Assembly: GCA_964352085.1 (NCBI GenBank)
Contig: CAYGPN010000007.1
Coordinates: 27,725 to 91,724, forward strand
From: an uncultured Gammaproteobacteria bacterium
GTDB taxonomy: Bacteria > Cyanobacteriota > Vampirovibrionia > LMEP-6097 > CAYGPN01
DNA length: 64,000 bases
Direction of reading: 5' to 3'
Shown here: positions 14,466 to 56,525 of the stretch, in pieces
How positions within the stretch are numbered: the stretch's first letter is position 1
Layout of the letters: each line of letters opens with the position of its first letter
The notes under the pieces: generated by a model
Seen by the model: only the letters and a program-made list of their open reading frames with translations
Databases searched by the model: none
What the model was told of the DNA's origin: nothing
Made by a program: the position numbers and the translations under genes

Positions 14466-14510
14466 ATTTCCGGTATTCCGGGTCTGACCCCTTTATGACC
14501 CCTTTTTTAT
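14466..14510 (+). terminator. putative intrinsic terminator after hisB
   Basis: CCGGtattCCGG / GGGTCTGACCCC hairpins followed by a T-rich tract. Confidence 0.3.
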
Positions 14511-14559: not shown

Positions 14560-14595
14560 ATTTTTTCCTTTGCTTTGCTATAATATACTTCAACC
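14560..14595 (+). promoter_or_regulatory. putative sigma70-type promoter for the MNIO peptide operon
   Basis: tgcTATAATat (an extended -10) lies about 55 nt upstream of the precursor ATG. AAGGA RBS at -12. Confidence 0.3.
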
Positions 14596-14646
14596 ACGAA
14601 GGTAATTGCTCCAGGGGGAAGCAAAAGTAAAAGGAACTCAAAACAG

Positions 14647-14922
14647 ATGAAGAAAACAAAAATCTTAGGTGCTGCATTAGCTGCTGGTTTAACTGCAGGT
14701 GCTGCAAACGCAATCAACGTACCAGGAGTAGATACTAGTGCAAACACTCTATTTGCAATGGAAGAAGTAGCTTCTCCATCATTGCTTTTAGCTGGTCACG
14801 GTCAATGTGGCGCTGGCAAATGCGGTGGTGATAAGTCTTGCAAAGGTGATCACGACTGTAAAGGTGATCATGACTGCAAAGGCGATCATGATTGTAAAGG
14901 TGATAAGTCTTGCAAAGGTTAA
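14647..14922 (+). CDS. RiPP-type precursor peptide: Sec signal peptide plus a Cys/His/Asp-rich repetitive core (candidate copper-binding peptide precursor, BufA/HvfA-like)
   Basis: 91 aa. MKKTKILGAALAAGLTAGAANA (AxA cleavage site), then QCGAGKCGGDKSCKGDHDCKGDHDCKGDHDCKGDKSCKG, which contains seven Cys. It sits immediately upstream of the DUF692/DUF2063 pair and has a good RBS. Confidence 0.65.
   Translation: MKKTKILGAALAAGLTAGAANAINVPGVDTSANTLFAMEEVASPSLLLAGHGQCGAGKCGGDKSCKGDHDCKGDHDCKGDHDCKGDKSCKG
14821..14919 (+). repeat. tandem 18-bp coding repeat (about 5.5 units) encoding (C-G/K-G-D-H/K-D/S)n
   Basis: tgcaaaggtgatcacgac / tgtaaaggtgatcatgac / tgcaaaggcgatcatgat / tgtaaaggtgataagtct / tgcaaaggt. 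There is synonymous third-position variation between units. Confidence 0.85.
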
Positions 14923-14942
14923 TTGAGCTATACTAATAGTCA

Positions 14943-15857
14943 ATGACTTTTAAGAAAACTAAAATTAATAAATTTGGTTTAGGACTAGGGTTGAGGAGTG
15001 AATTGCTCTCCTCAACCCTTTCTTTTTGTCAAGAAAATCCTGAAAATGATCTTATTCAGTGGTTAGAGTTTATCCCTGAAAACTACGCTACTAAAGGTGG
15101 CAAGCATAGAAAAAGTTTTAGGCAAGCAGTGGATGCTGGCTTTCAGTTAATCCCACATTCAGTTTCTATAAGCATAGGAACCGCACCTAAAGAAAAGGGT
15201 GAGATAGTTTTTAATAAATATCTTTTGGATTCTTTGAAAGATATTTTCACTGAAGTAAAACCACCTTGGTTTTCTGATCATTTATCTTTTTCCTACATTG
15301 ATGGTATTTATCTTGAAGACTTAATACCTCTCCCAAGAACTCAAGAAGCGATTGATGTGGTTGCAGACAATGTTAAGTATCTGCAAGATGAATTTCAACT
15401 TCCTTTTTTGGTTGAAAACCCTAGTTACTACTCAAACATTATTCTAAGTGAGATGAAAGAGTATGAATTTTTAAACTCAATAGTGAATAAAGCAGATTGT
15501 GGTTTGCTTTTAGATGTAAACAATATTTATGTCAATTCTGTGAATCATGAATATGATGCTTTTAACTTTCTAGATAATATGGATCTTGATAGAGTGGTTC
15601 AAGTGCATGTGGCTGGGCATGATGCTGATTATAAAACTCCAAGTGGTGAGTTTTTAAAAGTTTTAGATACTCACGGACAAAAAACTTTGCCTGTTGTAAT
15701 GGAGCTTCTAGACAGGCTTTTAGAGAAGACAGAAGTTAACGGTATTCTTTTAGAAAGAGACGGAAATTATCCTGAAGATTTTAAAGAGATAACTGATGAG
15801 TTGAAAGAAATTCGCGCTGTCATGAATAAGCACGAAAAAGTTTTGGAGGTGGTGTAA
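14943..15857 (+). CDS. DUF692 / MNIO (multinuclear non-heme iron oxidative) enzyme, MbnB/BufB/HvfB-like
   Basis: 304 aa. It begins FGLGLGLR and has the TIM-barrel xylose-isomerase-like pattern with conserved His/Asp/Glu positions (PHSVSISIG, SDHLSF, ENPS, LLLDVNN, HVAGH). Confidence 0.8.
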   Translation: MTFKKTKINKFGLGLGLRSELLSSTLSFCQENPENDLIQWLEFIPENYATKGGKHRKSFRQAVDAGFQLIPHSVSISIGTAPKEKGEIVFNKYLLDSLKDIFTEVKPPWFSDHLSFSYIDGIYLEDLIPLPRTQEAIDVVADNVKYLQDEFQLPFLVENPSYYSNIILSEMKEYEFLNSIVNKADCGLLLDVNNIYVNSVNHEYDAFNFLDNMDLDRVVQVHVAGHDADYKTPSGEFLKVLDTHGQKTLPVVMELLDRLLEKTEVNGILLERDGNYPEDFKEITDELKEIRAVMNKHEKVLEVV

Positions 15858-16582
15858 TGGCAGTCAAGACTCCAAGCTTAAGAGAGCTGCAACAAGAGAT
15901 AAAAACTTTTATCTTAGAAAATAAAGAAGGCTCTGTAACTACTTTGCCCAAGCATGAATATGGCAGGCTTAGTATTTACCGTGACCTGATTTATAATATG
16001 ACCACAAATTTCTTTGGGGATGTTTTTCCGCTTTCATATAAATTTTTAAAAAGCGAGTGGAGATCTTTAGTCAAAGAATACTACTCTAAATACACTCCAG
16101 ATGATCCGATTTTGGTTTACATGGCATATAACTTCCCTCTATTTATTCAAGAAAAAGGAGTCGGTCCTGCTTACTTGGCTGAGCTTGCTCTTTATGAGTG
16201 GTGTGAGCTAGAAGTTTCTATTTGCAAGCCTGAAGAGAAGGAGCAAGGCATTAACCCAGCTCATTTGGTAATTGATTTTGAATATCCAGTTACAGACATT
16301 GCTATTGAAATAGAAAAAGATAATCTGTCATACGAGCCTGAGCAAAAGAAACAACAAATACTTTTTTACAGAGACCCTGAAACATTACTAGTAAAAACTT
16401 TTGTGCTTGCACCTACTACGGCGATTGCTATAGAGATGCTTGATAACGGAGCTAGCTTAGGTGAGATCGCTTTAAAGGTTAAGGAAGCTTTCTCATTGCC
16501 AAATGAGATGGATGAAAAATTAAGAACAGATCTATCTGCTTTAATAGCTTCCTTGCAAGATAAGGGTATACTGCTAAAATAG
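15857..16582 (+). CDS. DUF2063-family partner protein (MbnC/BufC/HvfC-like)
   Basis: 241 aa. The start overlaps the MNIO stop (TAATG). The N-terminal L..Q..F...I / RLSIYRDLIYN...FGDVFP motifs are typical of DUF2063 partners of DUF692 enzymes. Confidence 0.65.
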   Translation: MAVKTPSLRELQQEIKTFILENKEGSVTTLPKHEYGRLSIYRDLIYNMTTNFFGDVFPLSYKFLKSEWRSLVKEYYSKYTPDDPILVYMAYNFPLFIQEKGVGPAYLAELALYEWCELEVSICKPEEKEQGINPAHLVIDFEYPVTDIAIEIEKDNLSYEPEQKKQQILFYRDPETLLVKTFVLAPTTAIAIEMLDNGASLGEIALKVKEAFSLPNEMDEKLRTDLSALIASLQDKGILLK

Positions 16583-16624
16583 AGAATAGGCGCTGCTTTC
16601 CTTAGTCATTTAGCCTTCTCTACT

Positions 16625-18499
16625 ATGGAATTGACTCATAATAGCTTGAATAACCCGGGGATAAGTCAGCAGGCAAATTCTGCTTCGAAGCATTTAGATT
16701 ACAGTAGAGTAAAAGAATTTTTAGAAAAAACAAAAGATAAGATCTCTAAAAATGAAAAAGTTATTTTTTATTGCATTGGCGCATCTTTGCATCATATACC
16801 TGTACCCGATACTTTTAAATACCCTAAGGCAAACCAAGGAGAATTTGACCTTAATTGGCAAGCAAAATATAAACCTTTTATCGAGAATCCAGTTTTTAAT
16901 AAAGCGGCTTCGCTTTGCTATAGTGGCGCTTTTGCTAGAGAGCTTTCTAAAATTCACCATCACGCGGAGTTAACAGAAATGGTTTCTGGTCTTAGGCTTG
17001 CTTCGCCAGTTACTAATTACCATAGTCTTTTAAGTAAACAGCTTGCTGATACTAAAATCATTGGTGACTTTACTTTTGCATATGTAGAAGCTAGAGCAAA
17101 TCATTTTTACCGTGAAAAATATCTTAGTAATAAAGCAATAGATCATTATTGGAGTGCAGAAGGTTTGATAAACATAGATCTTTTCGCTGATGTTTTAAAA
17201 GCCAATGAAACTCCAAAAGATGATTTGGTAGTTTTAGCGGTTCCTGCAAATGCTATTAAAGCCTTTTGTAATGAGAAGTTTGGTGTCTGGGAGGAAGTCG
17301 AGTGCGAGCAAGTGCCTTCTAGTTTTGCTAATGGAAAGCTCTATGAATACGATAAATATGGAAACCATAAAGCTGATTTGAAGCTTATTGAGCACCATCC
17401 AAAAAATCTTTATTCTCCTATCTATAAAATCAGATCTGGGGAGTATTGGATAATTGTTGTGCCGGTTAGTGAAAACGCTTATGGGAAATTCTCTAATTCT
17501 TTAGACAAAGGTGGTTTTACTAAAGCTGTGGAAAACAGACTGACAAAATCTGGAACCAAAGGCTTTATTGAAATTCAAGCTGATTATAATTTTGTTGAAG
17601 AGATCGTCAAATCTACTGAGCATGGTGAAAATATAGAGAAGGCTTTAAATTATGATTTGCCAGCCAATGGTATTATCTCCTGTTCGATTGGTGAAGCTGC
17701 TAGAACTAGTTTTGAGTTGATGGGTGGTTTTGACAATATTCCTGAAGCTCTCTTTTTCCAAGATGGAGGTAGCGCTTCTTCTGTAGCCACAGAAAAGAAT
17801 AGCGATGGCAGGCACCTTGGTGTTCATGATATGCACAAGATTTTAAAAAACGGCTGGCACAGCAGAGAAGATGTGGCTATTCCATGGCAGCTTATCGCTG
17901 GTGATCTTTTAGATAGCTCAAATGAGCACATCCTTGACGATGAAAATGTTTTTATCTTATCTCCAGAGATGGATAACACTAAATCCTTGAAAGAAAAGAA
18001 GGTGTTTTTAGAAGCTCCTCAAGAATGGAAGCCAATTGCCAACGATGTATTAAAACACTTTATTAAAGCAATTTATGCTGAATATACTATCCTTGCTACA
18101 CGCAAGTATCATATAAATATTCGTGACTCAGCTGAACTCGTTGCTAGCTATCTTGGTCTTGTTGCTATTTATGATAATAAGATTGATGCAAAGAATTTCA
18201 AAGAAGAACTTGCAAAATTAGAAGTGGCTGAAGAATTAGAAAAGTTTTTACAAATGCTTGGGCATATTCATTTCGCGGCTTGTTCATCTGCAGATTATTA
18301 CAGCGCTAAGACTCACCCTCACAGTATTATAAGGCTTCAGTGGCTAGCTAAAGCTCATAAAGAATTTAAATCAATCTCTCCTAATTTGGCTATGAAGTTT
18401 GAAGAAAAAATAAGAGAGATTTGCAAAGGTGAAGTGAGCTCAGAGTTCACGACTCTTGAAAACCTCTATTTTAGTGAACTGAATAAAATATCGGACTAA
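16625..18499 (+). CDS. hypothetical cytoplasmic protein (624 aa), co-directional with the MNIO operon
   Basis: Long clean ORF 42 bp after the DUF2063 gene. No signal peptide and no recognised domain. Confidence 0.5.
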   Translation: MELTHNSLNNPGISQQANSASKHLDYSRVKEFLEKTKDKISKNEKVIFYCIGASLHHIPVPDTFKYPKANQGEFDLNWQAKYKPFIENPVFNKAASLCYSGAFARELSKIHHHAELTEMVSGLRLASPVTNYHSLLSKQLADTKIIGDFTFAYVEARANHFYREKYLSNKAIDHYWSAEGLINIDLFADVLKANETPKDDLVVLAVPANAIKAFCNEKFGVWEEVECEQVPSSFANGKLYEYDKYGNHKADLKLIEHHPKNLYSPIYKIRSGEYWIIVVPVSENAYGKFSNSLDKGGFTKAVENRLTKSGTKGFIEIQADYNFVEEIVKSTEHGENIEKALNYDLPANGIISCSIGEAARTSFELMGGFDNIPEALFFQDGGSASSVATEKNSDGRHLGVHDMHKILKNGWHSREDVAIPWQLIAGDLLDSSNEHILDDENVFILSPEMDNTKSLKEKKVFLEAPQEWKPIANDVLKHFIKAIYAEYTILATRKYHINIRDSAELVASYLGLVAIYDNKIDAKNFKEELAKLEVAEELEKFLQMLGHIHFAACSSADYYSAKTHPHSIIRLQWLAKAHKEFKSISPNLAMKFEEKIREICKGEVSSEFTTLENLYFSELNKISD

Positions 18500-18897
18500 A
18501 CTTTTATATATCTTTCTTTGTAATCAATGAAAACAGAGAGGAACATAGCCTGTAAGCCGATCTTTAAGGACTGCATAAGCATGATAAAGTCAGCATCACT
18601 GTTGCTGAAATCCAGTGTTGAAATTAACTGTTTGCTTAAGCCAAGCATTTCGTCAATTGCAAGAAAAAAAACAAAAGTGCTAATGAAAGCCCATAATAAA
18701 TTAGCTTTAGCTTCGATTTTTTGTCTCAATTTGAAAATTTCCCAAGTACATGAAGCGATTATCATTAGCTTAAAAAAAGAATAGATGCTGATAAAGCCAC
18801 CATCCATAAAGCTGTTATCGGGTGTTAGTAATATTGCGTAAGCCAATGCAGTAGCATCAGCAAGCAAAAATATTATGATGACTTTCTTTGATGACAT
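18496..18897 (-). CDS. small hypothetical membrane protein (133 aa, 3-4 TM)
   Basis: Hydrophobic segments. Convergent with, and 4 bp overlapping, the 16625..18499 gene. Confidence 0.45.
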   Translation of the reverse strand: MSSKKVIIIFLLADATALAYAILLTPDNSFMDGGFISIYSFFKLMIIASCTWEIFKLRQKIEAKANLLWAFISTFVFFLAIDEMLGLSKQLISTLDFSNSDADFIMLMQSLKIGLQAMFLSVFIDYKERYIKV

Positions 18898-18928: not shown

Positions 18929-19486
18929 TTAAAGACAAGGACCGTCATTTACTTTAATAGCACCAAAGCTATTCATGATGCACTCATTATTGAAGGTTAG
19001 ATTTTCTGGGCTTGATTCATCACCATTGCAAATTTTGTTTTTAGTTGATTCGCAGCCGTCAAAGTTTACAGTTGCACAGACTGGAGCAAATTCTGTTATG
19101 CAATTAGAACCATCTGGAAGCATTAGTTTCAATGCTTTGTTTTCAACATTATCTTTGTCTGAATCAAATGCAAATAAAGCAAAGATTTCATTTAAAGGCT
19201 CCCCAGTCTTAGATTTCTTCGTTCTTAGCTTGACTTTTGCGGTGCCATTTTTAACATTTGCTTTTTTATTAATTCTTCTAATTCTTGTTTGACCATTGGT
19301 TTTTACTCTTAGTCTTCTAATTCCAGGATCAATATTAGTAACTGTAATAATATTTTTAGCGCGAGCGGTGAGTATGATTGGTGCAAGACCATTAAAACTT
19401 ACAGTTTGTCTAACTTTTCGCAGCTTTGCTGAAGCTGGCATCAAAGAGAAAAGTGATAAAGCTAATATTAGAGTTTTAATTTTCAT
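18929..19486 (-). CDS. secreted Cys-rich protein with a possible Kazal-like C-terminal domain
   Basis: Signal peptide MKIKTLILALSLFSLMPASA. The C-terminal 50 aa carry six Cys (PVCATVNFDGCESTKNKICNGDESSPENLTFNNECIMNSFGAIKVNDGPC), loosely matching Kazal spacing. Confidence 0.4.
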   Translation of the reverse strand: MKIKTLILALSLFSLMPASAKLRKVRQTVSFNGLAPIILTARAKNIITVTNIDPGIRRLRVKTNGQTRIRRINKKANVKNGTAKVKLRTKKSKTGEPLNEIFALFAFDSDKDNVENKALKLMLPDGSNCITEFAPVCATVNFDGCESTKNKICNGDESSPENLTFNNECIMNSFGAIKVNDGPCL

Positions 19487-21795: not shown

Positions 21796-22593
21796 ATGTC
21801 AAAGCCAATCGTAATTAAAATAGGTACTAGCACCCTTACGGGACGCAATCCTGGCGAGCCTATTAACATTGAGCTTGTAAATAAGCTTGCTAAGACGATT
21901 TGTGATTTTGAAAAGCAATATAAAAGAAAGTGTATTTTAGTTAGCTCTGGAGCTATGGGCCTTGGTATCGCGAAGCTAGGTCTTCAAGATAAGCTAGATG
22001 TCTATAAAGGGAAGCTAGATATGAAAGCTTCTATCACTGCTATTGGACAAGTGCAGCTGATGAACGTTTATGAGGGCGCTTTTCTGCATCAATGTAAAAA
22101 ACATGTTGGGCAGATACTTATAACCGATCACGCACTTAAAGAGCCTGGTAGGCAAAAGCGCGTTAAAAAAACTATCGAAAATCTTTTTGAATTAGATGTG
22201 CTTCCTATTTTTAACGAGAACGACACTGTTTGTCCTGATGAAATAGAGTACGGTGATAATGATAAACTCTCTGCTCACGTAGCAGTGCTAGCTGGCGCAG
22301 AGCGTTTGATAATTCTTACTGACACAGATGGTCTTTTTGATGCTGATCCACACTCTAATCCTGAGGCTAAACTCATAGAAAATATTTCTGAAATAACTGA
22401 AGATATAAAATCTATTGCTGGTGATAGCAGCACGCATGGCGGGCTAGGCGGCATGAAAACTAAAGTCCATGCAGCGGAGATTTGCATGCAAAATGGCATC
22501 GTCATGAATATTATTAATAAAGAACGCGTTGAAGAAATCTCTAACTTCGTTAATGGAAAAGAAAAGCCTAGAGGGACTGAGTTTAAGGCTTAA
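21796..22593 (+). CDS. proB: glutamate 5-kinase (short form without a PUA domain)
   Basis: 265 aa, amino-acid kinase family. IVIKIGTS...LVSSGA.GLG..KLGL matches ProB. Confidence 0.75.
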   Translation: MSKPIVIKIGTSTLTGRNPGEPINIELVNKLAKTICDFEKQYKRKCILVSSGAMGLGIAKLGLQDKLDVYKGKLDMKASITAIGQVQLMNVYEGAFLHQCKKHVGQILITDHALKEPGRQKRVKKTIENLFELDVLPIFNENDTVCPDEIEYGDNDKLSAHVAVLAGAERLIILTDTDGLFDADPHSNPEAKLIENISEITEDIKSIAGDSSTHGGLGGMKTKVHAAEICMQNGIVMNIINKERVEEISNFVNGKEKPRGTEFKA

Positions 22594-23867
22594 TTACTTA
22601 GCTGCACTGAATACGGTCCTGTATGACTGTTTCCACTGTAAGTGGACCTTCCTACTTGTAAGTAAAAAATTAAATCTGGATCTTGGAAATCAAAAATAGG
22701 CAGGTTGATATTATTATCACTTAAAATACCTCCGTTGTGGAAGGTTAACTTCTGGATAAAGAAACCACCAAGACCTGGGATTTTATAATTAACGCTAACG
22801 TCGTTTATTATTTTACTAGTAAATTTCAAGTTGTAATTACCAGGAGCGAGTTTCCCTATTCGAAAGTAATCTGTGTCTCCGGGATAGTCAATATCTCCAG
22901 TTTTCATGCTTCCATTTAACTCAAGCTCACTAGCATTAGCTGTACCGTTTCCTCTACCATCAGGTTCTCGAACTACAAGTCTAAAAACCCCAGGAGTATT
23001 TAAGTTAACAGAAAGTTTAATAGTGTAAGTGCCAGGGGTTAAGAACCTGTTTATCTTTCGAAGAGTTCCAGAAGAAAAGCCATCATGGTCAATAACATTT
23101 TTTGAAGTTGCTATTTCATTTTCAGAAGAGTCAAAAAGTCTCATGGTTAAGTTTGCAAATCTTTTAATTATGATATTTCCACTTTCATCAAAGCTTGTAT
23201 CAGGATCATTTTGCAATAATTCGATTGCGTAGAAATCTTCTTTATCTTTCCCGATGGTAAATTTAAAGCAAGCTATATCATCTGGAGAGTCTAAAGTCTC
23301 TTCGACTACTTTACCTATAGGGATTGCTCTAATACCATCATCACCTGGACTCCCATCCCCGCCGGGGTTCTCGTCACCATCAGGATTCTCTTCAGGCTCA
23401 TCACCTTTTAAAGCTTCTTTACTAAAAAGAGTAATTTTAAAATCATAAGCTTGAGGTGGCACGAACTTTCTACCAAACTTTTTAGAAGATCTTAAATGAT
23501 AAACACCTCTTTTTTTAAGCTTCACTACTATGTTGTTATCCGCATCTCTTTTTTTAGCAAGCCTTTTTCTTCCTTTGTAAAATTTAATAAAAGCAGGGCT
23601 AGTACTTTCTAAATGAAGCTCCATATTATTCTCTGGAACTAAGAATTCAAAAAAATCTTTATCTCTTCTATGATCAAGAGTACTTTCGCCTGATGCTGTC
23701 AGATTACCGTCTTCGTTTTCACTAAGCTCAAGTTTAGTAGCGTTTTTTCTATTGTTGCCAACAAGATCGACAGTACTTGGATCTTCAACAGCTAAAGCTG
23801 GTAAAAGGCTGCTAGCCACTAAAATTGTGATTGCAATGATCTGATAAAGTCTATTTCTAAAGTTCAT
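22590..23867 (-). CDS. secreted protein with two PPC (pre-peptidase C-terminal)-like domains
   Basis: 425 aa. Signal peptide MNFRNRLYQIIAITILVASSLLPALA. DxDxFxF signatures (HRRDKDFFEF, GDTDYFRI) and a Gly/Asp/Pro-rich linker. Confidence 0.55.
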   Translation of the reverse strand: MNFRNRLYQIIAITILVASSLLPALAVEDPSTVDLVGNNRKNATKLELSENEDGNLTASGESTLDHRRDKDFFEFLVPENNMELHLESTSPAFIKFYKGRKRLAKKRDADNNIVVKLKKRGVYHLRSSKKFGRKFVPPQAYDFKITLFSKEALKGDEPEENPDGDENPGGDGSPGDDGIRAIPIGKVVEETLDSPDDIACFKFTIGKDKEDFYAIELLQNDPDTSFDESGNIIIKRFANLTMRLFDSSENEIATSKNVIDHDGFSSGTLRKINRFLTPGTYTIKLSVNLNTPGVFRLVVREPDGRGNGTANASELELNGSMKTGDIDYPGDTDYFRIGKLAPGNYNLKFTSKIINDVSVNYKIPGLGGFFIQKLTFHNGGILSDNNINLPIFDFQDPDLIFYLQVGRSTYSGNSHTGPYSVQLSN

Positions 23868-29426: not shown

Positions 29427-32400
29427 TTATTTTTTACCTTTTAAGTTGACTAAGATGGAACCTTCTATTCGGTTTCCTGTCTCGACCTCAGTGAATATAA
29501 TCGGTACGGTTACCGTATTGTTCACTGAATCAAAGGCATCGCCTAAAGCATCTACGCTCTCTAAGAATTTTTTGCGGCTTTTAAGAACCACTTTAACCTT
29601 GCGAGCTTTTTTCTTCTTGCTATTAAGCTTGAATGGACTAGAAGGTTTGATTCTTACTAGATTTGCAAATAGTTCAGTAGTACTTGCTTGCACCGTTGTA
29701 ACTTTCTTTTCATTGTCTTCGCTATTGTTGAATTGAACTTTTAAGTTAACAGCTTTCTTTTTCTTTGCTTTAAGTTTTTTGACTTCTTTTAAAGTAGTTC
29801 CATCATCAGTAGTTCCGCCAATATCAAAAGTGGTTTTACCACCTGGATCTGAAGGTTCGCTAGGATCAGGTCCACCTGTAGTCGTAGCCTCTCTTACCGA
29901 GATGCTTTGGCTGCTAACGTTCTGCAAGCCACCAGCATCTGTAACAGTTAAGCTAACAGTTTTGCTTCCAGCACTTGTAAAAGTAAAGCTTGCTTGAGCT
30001 GTCGCCGCATCAAAAATTCCATCACCATCAAAGTCCCACTGAAATGATGTAACAGCTAGATCATCTGTGCTTGAGCTTCCATCAAAGCTAACAGCCGTAT
30101 TTTCAATTGGGCTAGTTGGACTAAAAGTAAAGCTGGCTACAGGAGCTTGGTTTGGAGGAGGAGCTGGTGGTGCTGGAGGAGCAGGAGCAGGAGGTGTTGG
30201 TGGAGGATTGCTCACTAGCACGCTCATTGAAATTACGCTTTGCTTTCCGCCATCATCAGTTACCCTTAAAAGAACATTATTAGTGCCAGCACTAGTATAA
30301 GTATTAGTTACTTGAGCGCCAGTAGCATCAAAAGTTCTATCACCATCAAAGTCCCATTCGTAAGTAGTTATGGTCCCATCATCTGTACTTAAGGATCCAT
30401 CAAAACTAACTTGTTGATTAGTTACTGGGCTTGCAGGATTAAAGCTAAATAAAGCTGTTGGAGCTAAGTTGTCAGGAGTAAACACTGTTTCAAATGTGTA
30501 ATTCTCTGGACTTAAAGAACTTGTGCTAAATGGACTTACTTGAATAAAGAAAGTAGTAGCACCAGCTTGGTTAGTTAACTCTAGTGATGCATTTAAACCT
30601 GAGCCACTATCATCATCTTGAGCTAATAAAGTTCCATTGGCGTCAAATACTGAAATAAGAGTATCTGCGCTTCCAGTAGTTCTAAATGTTATAGAACCAG
30701 CTTCAGAAAGTGTTGTTGTAAAGAAATCAAGATCAGCACCTGTCTCAAAAGTATTTAGAGCAGAGCTGTTATTAGCTACGCTAGTAGCGTTTGCTATGGA
30801 GTCGCCGTGATCGTCAGCAAGTAGTGATGTCATGAATGTGTAAGCTCCAAGATCAAATGGATTAAATCCAGTTACACTAGCCTCATAAGTAGTACCTGCT
30901 GTCACAGGAATAATTAAGCCGGCATTTTCTTCATTTGCACTATCATCATTTTCGCCAATTTGATTTAAATTTGAATCAAAAAGTCTAATGAATGTATCAG
31001 TGCTTCCTTCTGTGAACACAGTAAGAGCACCGTTTTGATTAGGCGTAAAAGTAAACCTATCATCATCAAGTCTTGTTTCAAGAATTCCGGCATCGGAAGT
31101 CTCGCCAGCTACTTGACTAGGAGTTACAGTTGTTGGGCTAACAGCTGGGTGATCATCATTTACTTGCTGAGTGTCAGGTGTAAATGTGGTTTTAACAGCA
31201 TATTGACCTACTAGACCATCAAAGTCTGAGAATAATTCAAGATAGTAAGTACCTGGGTTTAATGGTCTCTGGAATTTGAAATTAAATTTATCACCAAGGG
31301 GTTCTTCAAATGCAGAATCAAAAGCTGAGCCATTACTGTCTAATAAGAACATGTTGATTGCAGCATTTCCAAAAGACTCTGCTACAAAAATACCAGGCTC
31401 TGTGATAACGAATCTTAAAACATCGATATCAAACTCCTCCATTTCCTCTTTATAAGTTTCTCCCAAAGTAAGTAATGTAGTGGTTGAGATGTCTGCAGCT
31501 GAATCTGGATTAGGGGCAATACCATTGCTATCAAATTGAAGATCTAAAGTATAAACACCTTGATCGTCAGCTGAGAAACCACTAACACTTACAAAATAAA
31601 TACCTGATGGAAGATTAAGTGCAAGGTTAGCGTTTAAGTCTGTGCCAAGCTCGTCATCGTCATTAGTTCCTAGGCTGAGACCATTCGCATCAAAAATTTC
31701 TATGAAAGTATCAGTTGAACCAGTAGTTAATGCTGTCAGTGCACCAGCTTGAGCTAGCGTAACTGAGAAGAAATCAAAATCTTGATTGTTATTTATATTT
31801 CCATTAAATTGACTTCCCGTGCTTGCAATAGTTGCTTCAGCATTAGAGTTGCCGTGATCATCCGCTATAAAGGATGATGATAAAGAATAAGGTCCAGTAA
31901 CGAAATCACCAAAACCACCAACATCTATATAGTATGTGCCAGCAGGCAGTGATAAGCCACTAATATTGAAATTCAAAGATGGACCATCATCGTCATTATT
32001 AATAATAATGTTGCCGTTACTGTCTCTAAGTCTTCCAAGAGTATCAGTTCCACCTGAAGTCTCTAATTCTAAGTAACCTCTACTAGGCAAGATGATTTGG
32101 AAAACATCTCTATCACCAGAACTTTCTAGAAAACCATTTACAAATAAATCAATGCCATTAGTGTGATCTAAGATTGTTGCTGATGGGCTAGTGAAAACAC
32201 TACCATGGTCATCAGTTAAGCCATTCGTGAAAGCAGGCTGTATATTGTAAAAGCCAGTGCTAGTTAATGAATTACCAAGAACGGTTAGTATGTAGGTCCC
32301 GGCACTTACTGCTGTAGTTCGATTGTTCGCACTGGAGCCTACATTAGTGTCTAGGATGTTGTTGTCATTAGGGTCATCTAAAATCAATCTTAAGCCTGCT

Positions 32401-33758
32401 GAATTTGTGCTCGTTGATAAGAAGAGAGTACCTGTTTCAGTAAAAGTTAAGCTAAATACATCCCTATCACCACTTGTATCAATGCTAAAACCAGCATTAG
32501 TGTCCAAATTCAAAGCTAATGGTGTAGCTTTAGAGTTTGAAACATCGTCAAAAGAAAGAGTGTCAGTAATAGTTATTCCAGAAGTTGCAGAACCAGCTTG
32601 AACATTTAGTACGCCACCTTGACCAGCATCCACTAAATCAATAGTTGAAACTAAAGGGTTACCAGGACCATTATAGAATCCAGTTTTAATAAACTGTGTT
32701 TGTGGTCTGACAGGACCTAGTCTGGACCCACCTGTAAACCCTGCAGGGATAGTATCAACTCTAAGTGCGTAGTCGCCAGTTGGAAGGCAAGGAATATTAA
32801 ATGCACCATCACCTGTAGCAAACTTGTCTGATGCTGATGAAGCATTAGTGTTAAAAGGATCATTGATTTTAAAAGCAGTAATGTTTACGCCAAGTAGCGC
32901 GTGACCATTGCTTGTCTTAATTGCCCCACTGATATCTCCGCACGAAGAAGAGATTGTAGGCTGGTTTGGATAAGCTTCAGAGATTGATGAAATATCTGCT
33001 TGAGTCAAGGTAAAGCTATTGCTAATTGCAATTGGGAACATTATTGGAGCTAAGCTTGCAAGGTTAGCTGGAGGATTTGCTATTGCATGAATAGTATTTT
33101 CAAATGGATCTTTATTTCCTTGAATATGATCGAGACCAATCGCGTGACCTGTCTCATGAAGGAAAGTTGCCTTAAATAAATCTACTGTCCCTTGGAAGTC
33201 AACTTGTCCATTATTAGCAGTTATATATAAGAAACCATTCATTACCGCTTGCGACTCCACAATTCCACTAGAAGGGCTAGTAAAGGTTGGTCCTGCAAAT
33301 CCAAGAATATTATTTTTTAAACCAGTCCCAAAAAGTGCATCAGTGATTGATCCGTCATCATCAAAAATAACTGGTGAGTAACCAAGAGGGTTTGATGGGT
33401 TTAAAAAAGTGTTGAAGTTAGTTATGTTTACATCAACTCCAATTGAGGGTGTTGCATCTTTTGTAAAAGAGAAATTTGATGTTCCTACTTGATTCCACTG
33501 AGAAAGAATGCTGTCTGATAATGATTGAGGAGAGTTTGCCCCTCCTGCTTCAAGTAGCTCGCCGGCATTGCCAGCGTCAAGTCTATAGTTTAAAGTTCCT
33601 GAACTATAAGTTTTAAAACATTCTGGACCTGTTGGAACACCGCTGCAGCCGCTAACTAAAAGTCCAGCAGCATTTGCTTGCGGGCTTGCAATGAAACTTT
33701 GTGCTAGAAATGCAAGCGTTAAAGTTGTTCTGAGAATTAGTTGATTAAAATTTTTCAT
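29427..33758 (-). CDS. giant secreted multidomain metzincin-type zinc metalloprotease (M10-like catalytic domain + about 9 PPC domains + 2 PKD domains + Pro-rich linker + Lys-rich C-terminal region)
   Basis: 1443 aa. Signal peptide MKNFNQLILRTTLTLAFLAQSFIASPQANA. HETGHAIGLDH is the HExxHxxGxxH metzincin motif, and a Met-turn (APIMFP) lies downstream. The protein carries repeated about 100-aa modules with DxDxFxF (GDRDVF, DQDFDFF, DDDRFTF, ADLDFF), and PKD signatures WDFDGDRTFD / WDFDGDGIFD. A PPPTPPAPAPPAPPAPPP linker is present. Confidence 0.7.
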   Translation of the reverse strand: MKNFNQLILRTTLTLAFLAQSFIASPQANAAGLLVSGCSGVPTGPECFKTYSSGTLNYRLDAGNAGELLEAGGANSPQSLSDSILSQWNQVGTSNFSFTKDATPSIGVDVNITNFNTFLNPSNPLGYSPVIFDDDGSITDALFGTGLKNNILGFAGPTFTSPSSGIVESQAVMNGFLYITANNGQVDFQGTVDLFKATFLHETGHAIGLDHIQGNKDPFENTIHAIANPPANLASLAPIMFPIAISNSFTLTQADISSISEAYPNQPTISSSCGDISGAIKTSNGHALLGVNITAFKINDPFNTNASSASDKFATGDGAFNIPCLPTGDYALRVDTIPAGFTGGSRLGPVRPQTQFIKTGFYNGPGNPLVSTIDLVDAGQGGVLNVQAGSATSGITITDTLSFDDVSNSKATPLALNLDTNAGFSIDTSGDRDVFSLTFTETGTLFLSTSTNSAGLRLILDDPNDNNILDTNVGSSANNRTTAVSAGTYILTVLGNSLTSTGFYNIQPAFTNGLTDDHGSVFTSPSATILDHTNGIDLFVNGFLESSGDRDVFQIILPSRGYLELETSGGTDTLGRLRDSNGNIIINNDDDGPSLNFNISGLSLPAGTYYIDVGGFGDFVTGPYSLSSSFIADDHGNSNAEATIASTGSQFNGNINNNQDFDFFSVTLAQAGALTALTTGSTDTFIEIFDANGLSLGTNDDDELGTDLNANLALNLPSGIYFVSVSGFSADDQGVYTLDLQFDSNGIAPNPDSAADISTTTLLTLGETYKEEMEEFDIDVLRFVITEPGIFVAESFGNAAINMFLLDSNGSAFDSAFEEPLGDKFNFKFQRPLNPGTYYLELFSDFDGLVGQYAVKTTFTPDTQQVNDDHPAVSPTTVTPSQVAGETSDAGILETRLDDDRFTFTPNQNGALTVFTEGSTDTFIRLFDSNLNQIGENDDSANEENAGLIIPVTAGTTYEASVTGFNPFDLGAYTFMTSLLADDHGDSIANATSVANNSSALNTFETGADLDFFTTTLSEAGSITFRTTGSADTLISVFDANGTLLAQDDDSGSGLNASLELTNQAGATTFFIQVSPFSTSSLSPENYTFETVFTPDNLAPTALFSFNPASPVTNQQVSFDGSLSTDDGTITTYEWDFDGDRTFDATGAQVTNTYTSAGTNNVLLRVTDDGGKQSVISMSVLVSNPPPTPPAPAPPAPPAPPPNQAPVASFTFSPTSPIENTAVSFDGSSSTDDLAVTSFQWDFDGDGIFDAATAQASFTFTSAGSKTVSLTVTDAGGLQNVSSQSISVREATTTGGPDPSEPSDPGGKTTFDIGGTTDDGTTLKEVKKLKAKKKKAVNLKVQFNNSEDNEKKVTTVQASTTELFANLVRIKPSSPFKLNSKKKKARKVKVVLKSRKKFLESVDALGDAFDSVNNTVTVPIIFTEVETGNRIEGSILVNLKGKK

Positions 33759-54983: not shown

Positions 54984-56525
54984 ATGGCTCTAGCTACTGC
55001 TACACCTACATTTTCAGAGATGAGTAATACGAGGCCGGCGCCTCTGGGCTCTCCTGCTTCGAAGGCCTACGAAGCCGTTCAAAATAACAATCAAAATAGT
55101 TCTAACCAAGATGCTCCTCTAAATGAAAAAAAAGAGGAGCATTCTTTTTCTTTTGGGGTTTATGCTGATGCTGTGAAATCTCTCTGGAAGATACTTTCCG
55201 GAGCCATGGTAACTGAGGTTTTACGTGGAATTTTAAAGACTGATGATAAGTTCTCGTTAGCAAAAATTATTGATAAATCATTTCGCGTAGATTTTATTTC
55301 TAGATTTGTTGGTGATTTCGGTGGAGCCTTAATGGTTAGGATTTTAAATGGTAAGACAAAGTTCCTTGGCATGACAATCCCTAAGGTGCACACAGCAATT
55401 TCTTCTCAACTCTTTACAAATCTTTGGGTGAAATTTTGGCGTACGATGTCAAGTTCAGATAATCTAAATAAATTATCAGCAGATAATAATGACAACGAAG
55501 TTGCTAAGAAAAATATTGAGAAATTCCAGAATAAAACTTGGCATAAGATTCTTACCAGCATGAATGGCTTCTATAAAAATAAACTTGCACCAAACATTAC
55601 TCTATTCTTCTCTAAGATTTTTGGAATTAAGCCTGGTGAGAAAAACGCTGATGGTAAAACTGCTGATCCTAGTATCAATTGGATGCATTTTGGATCTGTT
55701 GCAGCTGCAGCTGGCTTAGGGACTTGGTTCTTGCCTGGTGACACTCAGATATTTGGTTTTGAAGATGTTCATAAAAGTAAAGATGCAAAATCTACTTTCT
55801 TAAATTCACTTTTAACTTGGGGTTTAACATCACTTGTTAGATTGGAGAATTATATCTTCAATAACGCCGTTACTTTACAACCTAAGGGTTATGGTTTCGA
55901 TGCTTGTAAGAAAATTGCAGTTCGCGAAAAAGGATTTATACCGATGGCGCAATATGCTTGCGATACTGTTGCTGCCGTTCTTTCTAAATCGACCAGTATG
56001 AATGGAGCTTTCTTATCATCTATTTTAAGGTTACCAATTGAAATTGCGACTACTTTCTTGACAGCTAGTTTAGTGGGTGTGTCTAAAACAAATAGGGTAC
56101 AAGATCATTGGGTGCTTCTTGCTGACAAGCTTATCAAGCCAATAGCGAAGAAGGTTGAGTGGATAGTTTCACCAGTCTTTGGTTTAGTGAGAGCTTTAAT
56201 TTACACGCCAATCTTTGGCTTCTTTGATCCTGCTGATGAAGGAGATAGTATCCCTTATGAAGAAGATAAAACACAGCTTTCTAAAGAAAAAGAAGAAGCT
56301 CTTTATAAGCGTATAGGTCATAGAAGTAAATTTAGATTATTTCTTAAGTCAGTCTTGTTTGACTGGTGGGCTAAAGATGTAGGAACTGCTCTGAAGCTAA
56401 GTATGAATGGTGGTACTAAGTCTAAGAAAGCTGCTCCGCCTGCTGCTGGCAAGGTTAAACAGGGCGTGGACGAAAAAAAGGGAGCCCTTAAGGCTCCCGA
56501 GTCAAAGCTTAATGCCTCTAAGTAA
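54984..56525 (+). CDS. hypothetical protein (513 aa)
   Basis: Clean ORF with no recognised domain. The C-terminus is Lys/Ala-rich. Confidence 0.45.
   Translation: MALATATPTFSEMSNTRPAPLGSPASKAYEAVQNNNQNSSNQDAPLNEKKEEHSFSFGVYADAVKSLWKILSGAMVTEVLRGILKTDDKFSLAKIIDKSFRVDFISRFVGDFGGALMVRILNGKTKFLGMTIPKVHTAISSQLFTNLWVKFWRTMSSSDNLNKLSADNNDNEVAKKNIEKFQNKTWHKILTSMNGFYKNKLAPNITLFFSKIFGIKPGEKNADGKTADPSINWMHFGSVAAAAGLGTWFLPGDTQIFGFEDVHKSKDAKSTFLNSLLTWGLTSLVRLENYIFNNAVTLQPKGYGFDACKKIAVREKGFIPMAQYACDTVAAVLSKSTSMNGAFLSSILRLPIEIATTFLTASLVGVSKTNRVQDHWVLLADKLIKPIAKKVEWIVSPVFGLVRALIYTPIFGFFDPADEGDSIPYEEDKTQLSKEKEEALYKRIGHRSKFRLFLKSVLFDWWAKDVGTALKLSMNGGTKSKKAAPPAAGKVKQGVDEKKGALKAPESKLNASK

What the first reader, a model, noticed from the sequence alone, without database searches (positions are those of the whole stretch)
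14560..18499. Apparent RiPP cluster: Sec-signal Cys/His/Asp-repeat precursor + DUF692 (MNIO) + DUF2063, followed by an uncharacterised 624-aa protein
Seen: a 91-aa ORF with a textbook Sec signal peptide and a 40-aa Cys-rich core is followed 20 bp later by a DUF692-type TIM-barrel protein (GLGLR..., conserved H/D/E positions). A DUF2063-type gene overlaps the DUF692 stop (TAATG). Established: DUF692 enzymes are the multinuclear non-heme iron oxidases MbnB, BufB, HvfB, TglH and ChrH, each paired with DUF2063 partners MbnC, BufC and HvfC. They convert peptide Cys residues into metal-chelating heterocycles: oxazolone-thioamide in methanobactin and Hvf, and thiooxazole in bufferins. Bufferin and Hvf precursors are unusual among RiPPs in carrying Sec signal peptides. 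Inference: this is a periplasmic or exported copper-chelating peptide system. The core does not match the published DUF2282 or 6/12-Cys bufferin cores, nor the EGKCG repeats of Hvf, so the product is probably undescribed. The gene order precursor-MNIO-partner is intact. No DoxX-type gene is visible: the adjacent 133-aa membrane protein is convergent and unrecognised. This is the strongest candidate in the window for a new biological system.
Basis: partly seen in the sequence, partly recalled or inferred. Interest (0 to 1): 0.85.

Follow-up and report, generated by a model that had tools for sequence, protein, structure and literature searches.

The report
Copper-peptide cluster with orphan fourth gene
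This is a real gene cluster of an already described, very widespread kind that makes exported copper-binding peptides. It has two unusual features: an atypical cysteine repeat in the peptide, and a conserved, previously unseen fourth gene whose predicted shape resembles a starch-cutting enzyme.

Summary
A 91-aa Sec-signal precursor with 7 Cys is followed by an MNIO (PF05114, 7e-79), a DUF2063/HvfC-type partner, and a 624-aa protein with no family match.

This is a "captophorin" (bufferin/oxazolin-type) MNIO-PME1 cluster, a class with more than 24,000 known loci, so it is not a new system. Orthologous loci in related uncultured low-GC bacteria carry canonical Hvf-type (E/D)(G/H)KCG precursors. 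A profile of these precursors reaches straight into the Buf_EGKCG/oxazolin family.

The window's core is an outlier inside that family. Five of its 7 Cys are followed by Lys (C-K-G), against 0.4% of 675 Cys in 120 relatives. The expected modification is 5-thiooxazole. Hvf's oxazolone-thioamide assignment has been revised.

The parts
14576..14584 (+). Extended -10 promoter element TGCTATAAT for the operon
   Evidence: Read directly. A TGnTATAAT or TATAAT element lies 40-60 nt upstream of the precursor ATG in 6 of 10 orthologous loci. Function is inferred, not shown.
14647..14712 (+). Sec signal peptide of the precursor (residues 1-22, MKKTKILGAALAAGLTAGAANA, cleavage after A-N-A)
   Evidence: Direct reading. 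The MKK start and the AxA motif are invariant in alignment A3. Sec signal peptides are typical of bufferin and oxazolin precursors (PMC12452194).
14713..14796 (+). Leader / recognition segment (residues 23-50, includes LFAMEEVASPSLLL)
   Evidence: The F/L-x-I/M-S/E-E segment is conserved across orthologues. It is shared with canonical EGKCG precursors, for example P0073 'PFAMTEI' and P0099 'PFGMSEM'. Binding by the partner's RRE-like domain is inferred from PMC13097082.
14797..14922 (+). Core (residues 51-91): HGQCGAGKCGG then DKSCKG-DHDCKG-DHDCKG-DHDCKG-DKSCKG; 7 Cys at residues 54, 59, 65, 71, 77, 83 and 89
   Evidence: 18-nt tandem repeat at 14827-14919. Two Cys are followed by Gly and five by Lys. 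There is no hit to the HvfA models and only a weak BufA2 hit (24.4 bits, cutoff 60).
14943..15857 (+). MNIO (DUF692) oxidase, BufB/HvfB-like
   Evidence: PF05114 7e-79 over 2-262 of 263 profile positions. BufB scores 226 bits and HvfB 225 bits, both below their equivalog cutoffs. 3BWW scores 1.6e-48, and the HxV, SDHL, VEN, LDVNN, HxAGH, DTH and ERD motifs align. The specificity sites read R18-S19 and ERD-G.
15857..16582 (+). PME1 / HvfC-type partner (DUF2063 N-terminal domain plus RRE-like C-terminal domain)
   Evidence: PF09836 2.4e-9. NGO1945_C 7.5e-4 and PqqD 1.3e-3 in the C-terminal half. NF050145 HvfC 1.2e-26, 94 bits, below the 142-bit cutoff. The start codon overlaps the MNIO stop.
16625..18499 (+). 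Conserved fourth gene ('BIG'): cytoplasmic 624-aa orphan protein with a GH57-like (beta/alpha)7 barrel plus a C-terminal helical domain
18496..18897 (-). Convergent 133-aa four-TM membrane protein; probably not part of the system
   Evidence: No DoxX hit. A homologue is found only in the closest locus L001 (33% identity). It is absent from the other syntenic loci.

Best explanation
The region 14576-18499 is a four-gene operon of the captophorin type (bufferin/oxazolin; MNIO-PME1 RiPP).

Proposed mechanism, inferred by homology:
1. The 91-aa precursor is made in the cytoplasm.
2. Its leader segment is held by the RRE-like C-terminal domain of the HvfC-type partner.
3. The iron-dependent MNIO performs a four-electron oxidation of Cys residues to 5-thiooxazoles, with a loss of 4 Da per Cys.
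4. The peptide is then exported by Sec and cleaved after Ala22.
5. This gives a roughly 69-residue periplasmic peptide that sequesters copper. The His and Asp of each DHDCKG unit are possible extra ligands.

The precursor is an orthologue of Hvf-type (E/D)(G/H)KCG repeat precursors. Its repeat has changed to D-(H/K)-(D/S)-C-K-G. The two C-G cysteines (54 and 59) are the safest predicted modification sites. The five C-K-G cysteines may or may not be modified.

The fourth gene encodes a cytoplasmic GH57-fold orphan protein that is inherited as a unit with MNIO and HvfC in one uncultured low-GC lineage. I consider it about as likely as not that it acts in the same pathway, as an accessory hydrolase or transferase, or as a precursor-handling factor. 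Its chemistry is unknown.
For: Shown here:
- MNIO and partner domain hits. The MNIO metal-ligand and catalytic ERD motifs align with 3BWW.
- The four genes are tightly coupled: a 20-nt gap, a 1-nt overlap and a 42-nt gap, with no terminator.
- A conserved extended -10 element lies upstream of the precursor.
- Precursor orthology and family membership by profile: 267 hits, including canonical EGKCG proteins and an EGKCG|EF-hand fusion.
- HvfA-domain model NF050137 passes its cutoff on the L001 and L004 orthologue fragments.
- The trio MNIO-HvfC-BIG is found in 14 distinct loci with gaps of 5-70 nt. BIG identity across them falls to 27-30% and MNIO identity to 48%.
- The trio persists where the downstream neighbour differs (L019), where the upstream neighbour differs, and where no precursor lies within 8 kb (L021/L022).
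- The GH57-like fold is supported by two methods.

From the literature:
- All characterised MNIO-PME1 pairs install 5-thiooxazole and their products bind Cu (PMC13097082).
- Sec export has been shown for bufferins (PMC12452194).
Against: - The BufB, HvfB and HvfC equivalog cutoffs are not reached, so the enzymes are only family-level members.
- The window's core fails the HvfA and BufA2 models.
- Five of 7 Cys are followed by Lys. FonBC does not process that context (HNDCK, NACKG).
- Cys-Lys-type MNIOs carry Asp at the FonB-Phe250 site. This MNIO has Gly there and its relatives have Ser or Ala.
- The one relative with a mixed KCG/CKG core (L018) keeps Ser at that site, so no co-adaptation is demonstrated.
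- BIG occurs without an MNIO within 6-10 kb in L002/L003 and L009.
- All trio loci belong to one lineage, so they are not independent observations.
- No sequence-level link of BIG to any enzyme family was found, and catalytic residues could not be superposed.
- There are no expression, mass-spectrometry or metal-binding data.
Confidence: 0.8

Rival explanations
1. The 624-aa GH57-fold protein is an unrelated cytoplasmic carbohydrate-active enzyme. It is simply the next gene in a strongly syntenic chromosome region, and the RiPP system is the ordinary three-gene set.
For: The whole neighbourhood (HD-GYP, creatininase, hisB, cluster, rsmI, S18/L28, chorismate synthase) is collinear across the lineage. 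BIG occurs away from any MNIO in L002/L003 and L009, where it is fused in an operon with a TrmA-like methyltransferase. Its best structural matches are amylases, glucanotransferases and branching enzymes. No published MNIO cluster includes such a protein.
Against: The trio stays intact where both flanks have changed (L019, L021) and where the precursor is not adjacent. Gaps are 5-70 nt on the same strand. The family is essentially confined to genomes with this cluster: 20 representatives in 1.84 billion proteins. No other glycogen or starch genes were seen among the window ORFs scanned. There is no Pfam GH57 signal in any of the 19 members.
Confidence: 0.45
2. Only the two C-G cysteines (54 and 59) are converted to thiooxazoles. 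The five C-K-G cysteines stay as thiols. The product is then a hybrid thiooxazole / Cys-His-Asp, metallothionein-like peptide.
For: 97% of 675 Cys in 120 family relatives are followed by Gly. FonBC needs a small residue after Cys and rejects C-K substrates. This MNIO lacks the Asp that accompanies Cys-Lys substrates.
Against: Cys-Lys precursors are processed by their own MNIOs, such as BufB2. The window's MNIO has Gly, uniquely, at the gatekeeping site, which could make room for Lys. The five C-K-G units are maintained as a clean in-frame tandem array.
Confidence: 0.35
3. One reading: the product carries oxazolone-thioamide groups like methanobactin, or is an undescribed chemotype.
For: MNIOs catalyse diverse reactions. 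The equivalog cutoffs are not met. PMC13097082 itself notes that it is not yet established that 5-thiooxazole is the only MNIO-PME1 modification.
Against: The MbnB match is far weaker (42.8 bits) than the BufB/HvfB matches (about 225 bits). Oxazolin, gonophorin, fontiphorin and the bufferins, which are all the PME1-dependent cases examined, carry 5-thiooxazole.
Confidence: 0.08
4. The window's precursor is a drifting or decaying allele. Its repeat array was homogenised to a non-substrate motif, so the cluster no longer makes a modified peptide.
For: It is the only C-K-dominated core among more than 120 relatives. No compensating Asp is present in the MNIO.
Against: The ORF, signal peptide, leader, promoter element and all three downstream genes are intact, and the MNIO catalytic motifs are conserved. 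Cys spacing and the His/Asp context are preserved.
Confidence: 0.07

Closest known systems
Oxazolin system hvfA-hvfB-hvfC (+DoxX) of Haemophilus influenzae / Buf_EGKCG-oxazolin family
   Same: Sec-signal precursor with short Cys repeats, then MNIO, then DUF2063/RRE partner, in the same gene order. The orthologous precursors of this lineage are xxKCG repeats, and two pass the HvfA-domain model. The precursor profile retrieves canonical EGKCG proteins. The MNIO scores 225 bits on the HvfB model.
   Different: The window's core is mostly D-H-D-C-K-G in 6-residue units, with His and Asp and with Lys after Cys rather than before it. The HvfA, HvfB and HvfC equivalog cutoffs are not met. The MNIO has RS...ERD-G instead of RR...ERD-F. 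There is no DoxX. An extra 624-aa gene is present.
Bufferin 2 system BufA2-BufB2-BufC2 (Cys-Lys captophorins)
   Same: A Cys-Lys motif in the substrate. There is a weak BufA2 model hit (24.4 bits), and the MNIO scores 226 bits on the BufB model. The product is a periplasmic copper-binding peptide.
   Different: All hits are below cutoff. The MNIO lacks the Asp at the FonB-Phe250 / BufB2-Asp251 site that is described for Cys-Lys enzymes. By leader homology and synteny the precursor belongs to the Lys-Cys/EGKCG group.
Fontiphorin FonABC (Fontimonas thermophila)
   Same: A three-gene MNIO-PME1 cluster without DoxX, with seven modifiable Cys. The leader segment is similar (VFQASDL...YMVA versus LFAMEEV...LLLA).
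   Different: FonA has EGKCG repeats. FonBC does not process C-K substrates. There is no fourth gene.
GH57 glycoside hydrolases (e.g. Pyrococcus maltose-forming amylase 4CMR, AmyC 2B5D, branching enzyme 1UFA)
   Different: Identity is 9-13%. There is no PF03065 hit in any of 19 members and no PDB sequence hit at E<=10. The five GH57 signature regions are not recognisable. The candidate residue E155 is replaced by Ser in one member. The genomic context is a RiPP operon, not glycan metabolism.
Methanobactin MbnA-MbnB-MbnC
   Same: An MNIO acts on peptide Cys to give a copper-binding heterocycle.
   Different: MbnB similarity is low (42.8 bits, E 4e-11). MbnA has a classical leader and no Sec signal. 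MbnC is not a DUF2063/PME1 protein. The product is oxazolone-thioamide, and it is secreted for copper uptake rather than periplasmic sequestration (PMC12452194, PMC13097082).

Membership tests
MNIO superfamily (PF05114, MbnB_TglH_ChrH/DUF692) | Full-length match to the Pfam model above the gathering score | tested here: met
   265.2 bits against a cutoff of 25, covering profile positions 2-262 of 263.
MNIO superfamily (PF05114, MbnB_TglH_ChrH/DUF692) | Conserved metal-ligand and catalytic motifs, including the ERD catalytic base | tested here: met
   IPHSV, SDHL, VEN, LDVNN, HVAGH, DTH and LLERD are aligned and identical with 3BWW. The ERD motif is at residues 271-273.
BufB equivalog (NF050167) / HvfB equivalog (NF003818) | Score at or above the NCBIfam curated cutoff | tested here: not met
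   226 bits against cutoff 310, and 225.2 bits against cutoff 360. The two are equally close, so neither subfamily can be assigned.
PME1 partner (DUF2063 + RRE; HvfC/BufC) | DUF2063 N-terminal domain above the Pfam cutoff | tested here: met
   PF09836 at 37.8 bits against a cutoff of 27.2.
PME1 partner (DUF2063 + RRE; HvfC/BufC) | C-terminal RRE-like (NGO1945_C / PqqD-like) domain | tested here: inconclusive
   NGO1945_C scores 20.3 bits (cutoff 27) and PqqD 19.5 bits (cutoff 23.4), both over residues 134-239. Orthologues in L004 and L005 have recorded HvfC_C hits. The HvfC equivalog scores 94 bits against a cutoff of 142.
Captophorin class (PMC13097082) | MNIO, PME1 and a Cys-rich precursor encoded together | tested here: met
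   All three are adjacent and co-oriented.
Captophorin class (PMC13097082) | 5-thiooxazole modification of Cys, and copper binding | not testable with these tools
   This needs co-expression, LC-MS, UV at about 305 nm, alkylation plus HMBC, and native MS with Cu.
Buf_EGKCG/oxazolin (HvfA) precursor family | Sec signal peptide | tested here: met
   By direct reading (MKKTK, hydrophobic stretch, ANA|I) and by conservation in A3. No dedicated predictor was available.
Buf_EGKCG/oxazolin (HvfA) precursor family | Repeated E-G-K-C-G motifs (NCBIfam NF050137, cutoff 19.5) | tested here: not met
   The window's precursor gives no hit. Orthologue fragments score 24.1 (L001), 19.7 (L004) and 14.1 (L005). 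The window has a single AGKCG unit, and 5 of its 7 Cys are in C-K-G units.
Buf_EGKCG/oxazolin (HvfA) precursor family | Homology of the leader and overall precursor to family members | tested here: met
   The profile of 8 lineage precursors, window included, retrieves 267 proteins. These include canonical EGKCG-repeat proteins and an EGKCG|EF-hand fusion. The window scores 2e-35 against that profile, but it was part of the profile.
Buf1 (DUF2282) / Buf2 (BufA2, NF050166) precursors | Model hit above cutoff | tested here: not met
   No DUF2282 hit. BufA2 scores 21-24 bits against a cutoff of 60.
Typical bufferin/oxazolin BGC | DoxX gene in the cluster (frequent but not obligatory) | tested here: not met
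   No DoxX hit for the 133-aa or other adjacent ORFs. tblastn with the L002 DoxX finds nothing in the window. FonABC also lacks DoxX.
GH57 glycoside hydrolases (for the 624-aa protein) | (beta/alpha)7 barrel plus helical domain fold | tested here: met
GH57 glycoside hydrolases (for the 624-aa protein) | Sequence membership (PF03065; five conserved regions) | tested here: not met
   No Pfam hit in 19 members at E<=5. No PDB sequence hit at E<=10.
GH57 glycoside hydrolases (for the 624-aa protein) | Catalytic Glu nucleophile and Asp acid/base in equivalent positions | tested here: inconclusive
   D173, E374, D/E380 and E463 are invariant, and E155 is present in 18 of 19 members.

The most novel reading that the evidence does not exclude
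The GH57-fold orphan protein is a previously unrecognised accessory component of thiooxazole-metallophore (captophorin) biosynthesis. One possibility is a tailoring enzyme acting on the precursor in the cytoplasm. Another is a factor that holds or hands over the signal-peptide-bearing precursor, so that it is modified before Sec export. How premature export is avoided is explicitly flagged as an open question in PMC12452194. In parallel, the natural KCG-to-CKG switch within an orthologous locus would mark a shift in MNIO substrate specificity achieved without the published Phe-to-Asp change.
Probability: 0.3. Interest if true: 0.65.

Novelty: new variant of a known kind. Interest (0 to 1): 0.45.

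Why it matters
Captophorin (bufferin/oxazolin) clusters are among the most widespread RiPP systems. They are linked to copper stress and, in Haemophilus, to virulence. Several questions remain open:
- what accessory genes such as DoxX do;
- how signal-peptide precursors avoid premature export;
- what sets Cys-site selectivity.

This locus offers two handles on those questions. The first is a new protein family with a glycosidase-like fold that is locked to the MNIO-partner pair. The second is a natural precursor whose repeats moved the Lys from before to after the Cys, while its enzyme kept a small residue at the known gatekeeping site.

If the fourth gene turns out to be an unrelated neighbour, the locus is an ordinary member of a known class, found in a poorly sampled uncultured lineage.

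Tried and rejected
- Single-sequence search with the precursor found nothing. Only the orthologue profile worked.
- Sequence-level annotation of the 624-aa protein gave no result. This covered Pfam and NCBIfam on the window protein, Pfam on all 19 family members, and a profile against PDB sequences at E<=10.
- The afdb50 fold library was unavailable.
- The first AF2 model, built from 5 sequences, was mediocre (pLDDT 67). It was replaced by a 19-sequence model.
- I looked for co-adaptation between the C-K core and the MNIO specificity site. The window is uniquely ERD-G, but L018, with a mixed KCG/CKG core, keeps ERD-S. No acidic gain is seen in the window's MNIO. The idea is not supported.
- An 11-bp direct repeat upstream (14485-14505) was considered as a response-regulator site. 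It is not conserved in any orthologous locus and is followed by a T-run, so it is more likely part of the hisB terminator.
- The 133-aa convergent membrane protein was considered as a DoxX analogue. It has no DoxX signal and is conserved only in L001.
- L012 (short contig) and L013, L016, L018 and L020 (cut contigs) were uninformative for part of the context.
- Organism identity could not be resolved because public labels conflict.

Full report
**1. Observation.**
- The precursor is 14647-14922 (91 aa).
- The second ORF is 14943-15857, 20 nt after the precursor.
- The third ORF is 15857-16582. Its ATG shares an A with the preceding TAA (GTGTAATGGCA).
- The 624-aa ORF is 16625-18499.
- A convergent 133-aa ORF overlaps its end by 4 nt.

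The precursor reads MKKTKILGAALAAGLTAGAANA | INVPGVDTSANTLFAMEEVASPSLLLAG | HGQCGAGKCGGDKSCKGDHDCKGDHDCKGDHDCKGDKSCKG. It has seven Cys, at residues 54, 59, 65, 71, 77, 83 and 89. The core is encoded by an 18-nt tandem array (TRF score 82, or 128 at period 36).

PF05114 scores 7e-79 over the whole model. PF09836 scores 2.4e-9, above its gathering score.

**2. What kind of system it is.**
NCBIfam places the MNIO equally close to BufB (226 bits) and HvfB (225 bits), and far from MbnB (43 bits), ChrH and ApyH. The partner is closest to HvfC (94 bits). All three scores are below their equivalog cutoffs.

The closest solved structure is the Histophilus somni HvfB-type MNIO 3BWW (E 1.6e-48). The metal-ligand and ERD motifs align identically with it. 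The partner's C-terminal half gives sub-threshold NGO1945_C and PqqD hits, which fits an RRE-like domain.

Recent literature defines exactly this architecture as a class:
- MNIO, plus a DUF2063/RRE partner (PME1), plus a Cys-rich precursor that usually carries a Sec signal peptide.
- The class is called "captophorins". It has more than 24,000 loci and occurs in about half of Pseudomonadota reference genomes.
- Precursors are grouped as DUF2282, Lys-Cys repeats (4,667 BGCs) and Cys-Lys repeats (1,172 BGCs) (PMC13097082).
- The Buf_EGKCG/oxazolin family has about 2,000 members, and hundreds more signal-peptide Cys peptides remain unclassified (PMC12452194).
- All characterised members carry 5-thiooxazoles. 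This includes oxazolin (Hvf), whose oxazolone-thioamide assignment has been revised, also by the original authors.

**3. Related loci and the precursor.**
The single precursor sequence found nothing in the 5.8-billion-cluster database. Loci retrieved through the 624-aa protein and the MNIO are syntenic with the window. Their gene order is HD-GYP protein, creatininase, a repeat-rich protein, hisB, precursor, MNIO, HvfC-type partner, 624-aa homologue, then convergent rsmI.

Their precursors share the signal peptide and an F/L-x-I/M-S/E-E leader segment (alignment A3). Their cores are (E/D)(G/H)(K/E/H)CG repeats:
- DHKCGEGKCGEGKCG (L010);
- DHKCGKDHKCG (L006 and L007);
- GEGKCGEGKCG (L001).

The NCBIfam HvfA-domain model NF050137 (cutoff 19.5) scores 24.1 and 19.7 on the L001 and L004 fragments and 14.1 on L005. 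It gives nothing on the window.

A profile of the eight lineage precursors retrieves 267 proteins. Among them are canonical EGKCG-repeat proteins, such as the one from gamma proteobacterium HTCC5015. There is also an EGKCG|EF-hand fusion of the kind described in PMC12452194.

The window's precursor is therefore a divergent member of the Buf_EGKCG/oxazolin family by descent. Its core is nevertheless an outlier:

| Feature | 120 relatives (675 Cys) | Window (7 Cys) |
|---|---|---|
| Cys followed by Gly | 97% | 2 of 7 |
| Cys followed by Lys | 0.4% | 5 of 7 |
| Cys preceded by Lys | 86% | 1 of 7 |

(All figures.) Anchored on the conserved D-H and C, the unit changed from D-H-K-C-G-K to D-H-D-C-K-G.

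**4. Does the enzyme match the changed substrate?**
PMC13097082 reports the following:
- FonBC needs a small residue after Cys and does not process HNDCK or NACKG substrates.
- Lys-Cys MNIOs conserve Arg-Arg near the N-terminus and Phe after the catalytic Asp.
- Cys-Lys MNIOs have Asp at that Phe site.

3BWW, HvfB and FonB read RR...ERD-F. In this lineage the site is Ser or Ala (ERD-S-N-F). In the window it is uniquely Gly (ERD-G-N-Y), with R-S at the N-terminal site.

The only relative with a mixed KCG/CKG core is P0045 (locus L018), and it keeps ERD-S. A small residue at the gatekeeping position may tolerate both contexts. Co-adaptation is not demonstrated, and it remains open how many of the seven Cys are modified.

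**5. The fourth gene.**
The 624-aa protein has no signal peptide or TM segment and no Pfam or NCBIfam match. The word-indexed search found only 4 homologues. A profile search that read all 1.84 billion representatives found 20, of which 17 score below 1e-30.

- lower scores to CE4 deacetylases (15.8 or less) and GH38 (15.5).

Foldseek independently ranks 4CMR first (E 6e-8, prob 1.00, TM 0.52). No sequence-level relation exists. Pfam gives nothing on all 19 members, and a profile against PDB sequences gives no hit at E<=10.

The family's conserved motifs are:
- AY(I/V)EA(K/R);
- (I/V)DHF;
- (V/I)PxNAIKAFR;
- SPIYKVK;
- CSxGQAAR;
- PEALLNx(E/D)GGSWSS..TEK.S.GRH.G;
- IPWNYL;
- E.PQxWKK;
- DFYSSKTHP.

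Invariant carboxylates D173, E374 and D/E380 lie on or after predicted strands 4 and 7. By my own knowledge of GH57 structures, these are the strands that carry the GH57 catalytic pair. I could not superpose residues, so this is inference only. E155 is Ser in one member.

**6. Is the fourth gene part of the system?**

For:
- MNIO, then HvfC, then this protein, on one strand with gaps of 5-70 nt, occur in 14 distinct loci. These are the window, L001, L004, L005, L006, L007, L008, L010, L013, L014, L015, L016, L019 and L021/L022.
- Identity of the protein across these loci falls to 27-30%.
- The trio survives rearrangement on either side. In L019 it is followed by an epimerase rather than rsmI. 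In L021/L022 it is preceded by RNase HII, and no precursor homologue lies within about 8 kb.
- A more distant MNIO-HvfC locus (L017, GC 58%, 42% MNIO identity) lacks the protein.
- In the window, the 42-nt gap has no terminator and no unusually stable hairpin.

Against:
- All trio loci belong to one low-GC lineage with strong general synteny, so they are not independent.
- In L002/L003 and L009 a shorter homologue sits with no MNIO within 6-10 kb. There it lies between an unknown 254-aa gene and a TrmA-like methyltransferase, two genes downstream of a weak DoxX hit.
- No MNIO paper mentions a GH57-like or deacetylase-like partner.

I put the probability of a functional link near one half.

**7. 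Mechanism proposed.**

Shown:
- gene content, order and coupling;
- domain membership;
- precursor orthology;
- a conserved TGnTATAAT element 40-60 nt upstream of the precursor ATG in the window (14576-14584) and five other loci.

Inferred from characterised homologues:
- The partner's RRE-like domain binds the leader.
- The MNIO oxidises Cys to 5-thiooxazole in the cytoplasm, with a loss of 4 Da each.
- Sec exports the peptide and signal peptidase cleaves after A22.
- The periplasmic peptide binds Cu(I). The His and Asp in each repeat are possible additional ligands.

Unknown:
- the number of modified Cys;
- the metal specificity;
- the role of the GH57-fold protein.

**8. Novelty and verdict.**
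The cluster is a member of a well-described and very large class.

Two features go beyond a routine new member:
- an orphan GH57-fold protein family that is genetically locked to MNIO-PME1 in one uncultured lineage;
- a natural Lys-Cys to Cys-Lys switch in an orthologous precursor, without the published enzyme signature for Cys-Lys substrates.

I classify it as a new variant of a known kind, with interest 0.45.

Public labels for the lineage conflict. L006 and L007 are titled "uncultured Gammaproteobacteria". A protein of the syntenic L019 assembly is labelled "Cyanobacteriota bacterium". The window's own genome is not in the searched collections, where the best homologue of the 624-aa protein is 58% identical.

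Noticed in passing
L006/L007 (record titles), L019 (GCA_041170505.1), proteins P0037, P0065, P0069: Public taxonomic labels for this lineage conflict. The L006 and L007 MAGs are titled 'uncultured Gammaproteobacteria bacterium'. The precursor of the fully syntenic L019 locus is named '[Cyanobacteriota bacterium]'. More distant precursor relatives are labelled Melainabacteria or Vampirovibrio. The window encodes AstA, Lnt, GlnA, HisF, a T2SS-F/PilC-type protein, CarAB and PyrD.
   Followed up: partly
window 14485-14505: A perfect 11-bp direct repeat, TGACCCCTTTA x2, followed by a T-run, lies between hisB and the operon promoter. It is not present in any orthologous intergenic region. It is possibly part of the hisB terminator rather than a regulator site.
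   Followed up: partly
window 18496-18897 (-) and 18929-19486 (-); L001 3643-4299 (-) and 4415-4999 (-): Two genes lie between the cluster and rsmI. One is a four-TM 133-aa protein that overlaps the end of the 624-aa gene by 4 nt. The other is a 185-aa secreted protein with a Cys-rich C-terminal domain. Both have homologues only in the closest locus L001, and neither matches any family.
   Followed up: partly
L021/L022 5137-9590: In this relative the MNIO-HvfC-BIG trio directly follows an RNase HII gene (6-nt gap). No precursor homologue lies within about 8 kb, so the precursor must be encoded elsewhere or be unrecognisable.
   Followed up: partly
L002 5139-11575; L009 1117-7515: Stand-alone homologues of the 624-aa protein (524 and 504 aa, lacking the region around residues 288-345) lie in a different conserved block. 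That block is: ABC permease, 623-aa unknown, weak DoxX hit, SBP_bac_5, 254-aa unknown, homologue, TrmA-like methyltransferase. DoxX is the usual accessory gene of bufferin/oxazolin clusters, so its proximity may or may not be a coincidence.
   Followed up: no
L012 (GCA_013565675.1, contig JACCDV010673716.1): A homologue of the 624-aa protein lies on a 3-kb contig of an assembly whose contig accession number exceeds 670,000, next to a tRNA gene and an ATPase-like ORF. This may be bacterial sequence inside a eukaryotic host assembly, which would hint at a host-associated lifestyle for part of the lineage.
   Followed up: no
L014 4607-4924, L019 8001-8267 (precursors P0028-P0037 type): A sub-branch of the lineage has precursors with only two Cys (DHECGEGQCGE), followed by an acidic Gly/Asp/Glu-rich tail instead of further Cys repeats. 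These are minimal-core variants of the family.
   Followed up: no
window 6420-8633 (-), 29427-33758 (-), 22590-23867 (-), 54984-56525 (+): Other unannotated or unusual large ORFs occur in the window. One is a 737-aa protein with only a Peptidase_C39_2 domain. Another is a 1443-aa PKD/PPC-domain protein. Two proteins, of 425 aa and 513 aa, have no Pfam match at E<=1e-5.
   Followed up: no
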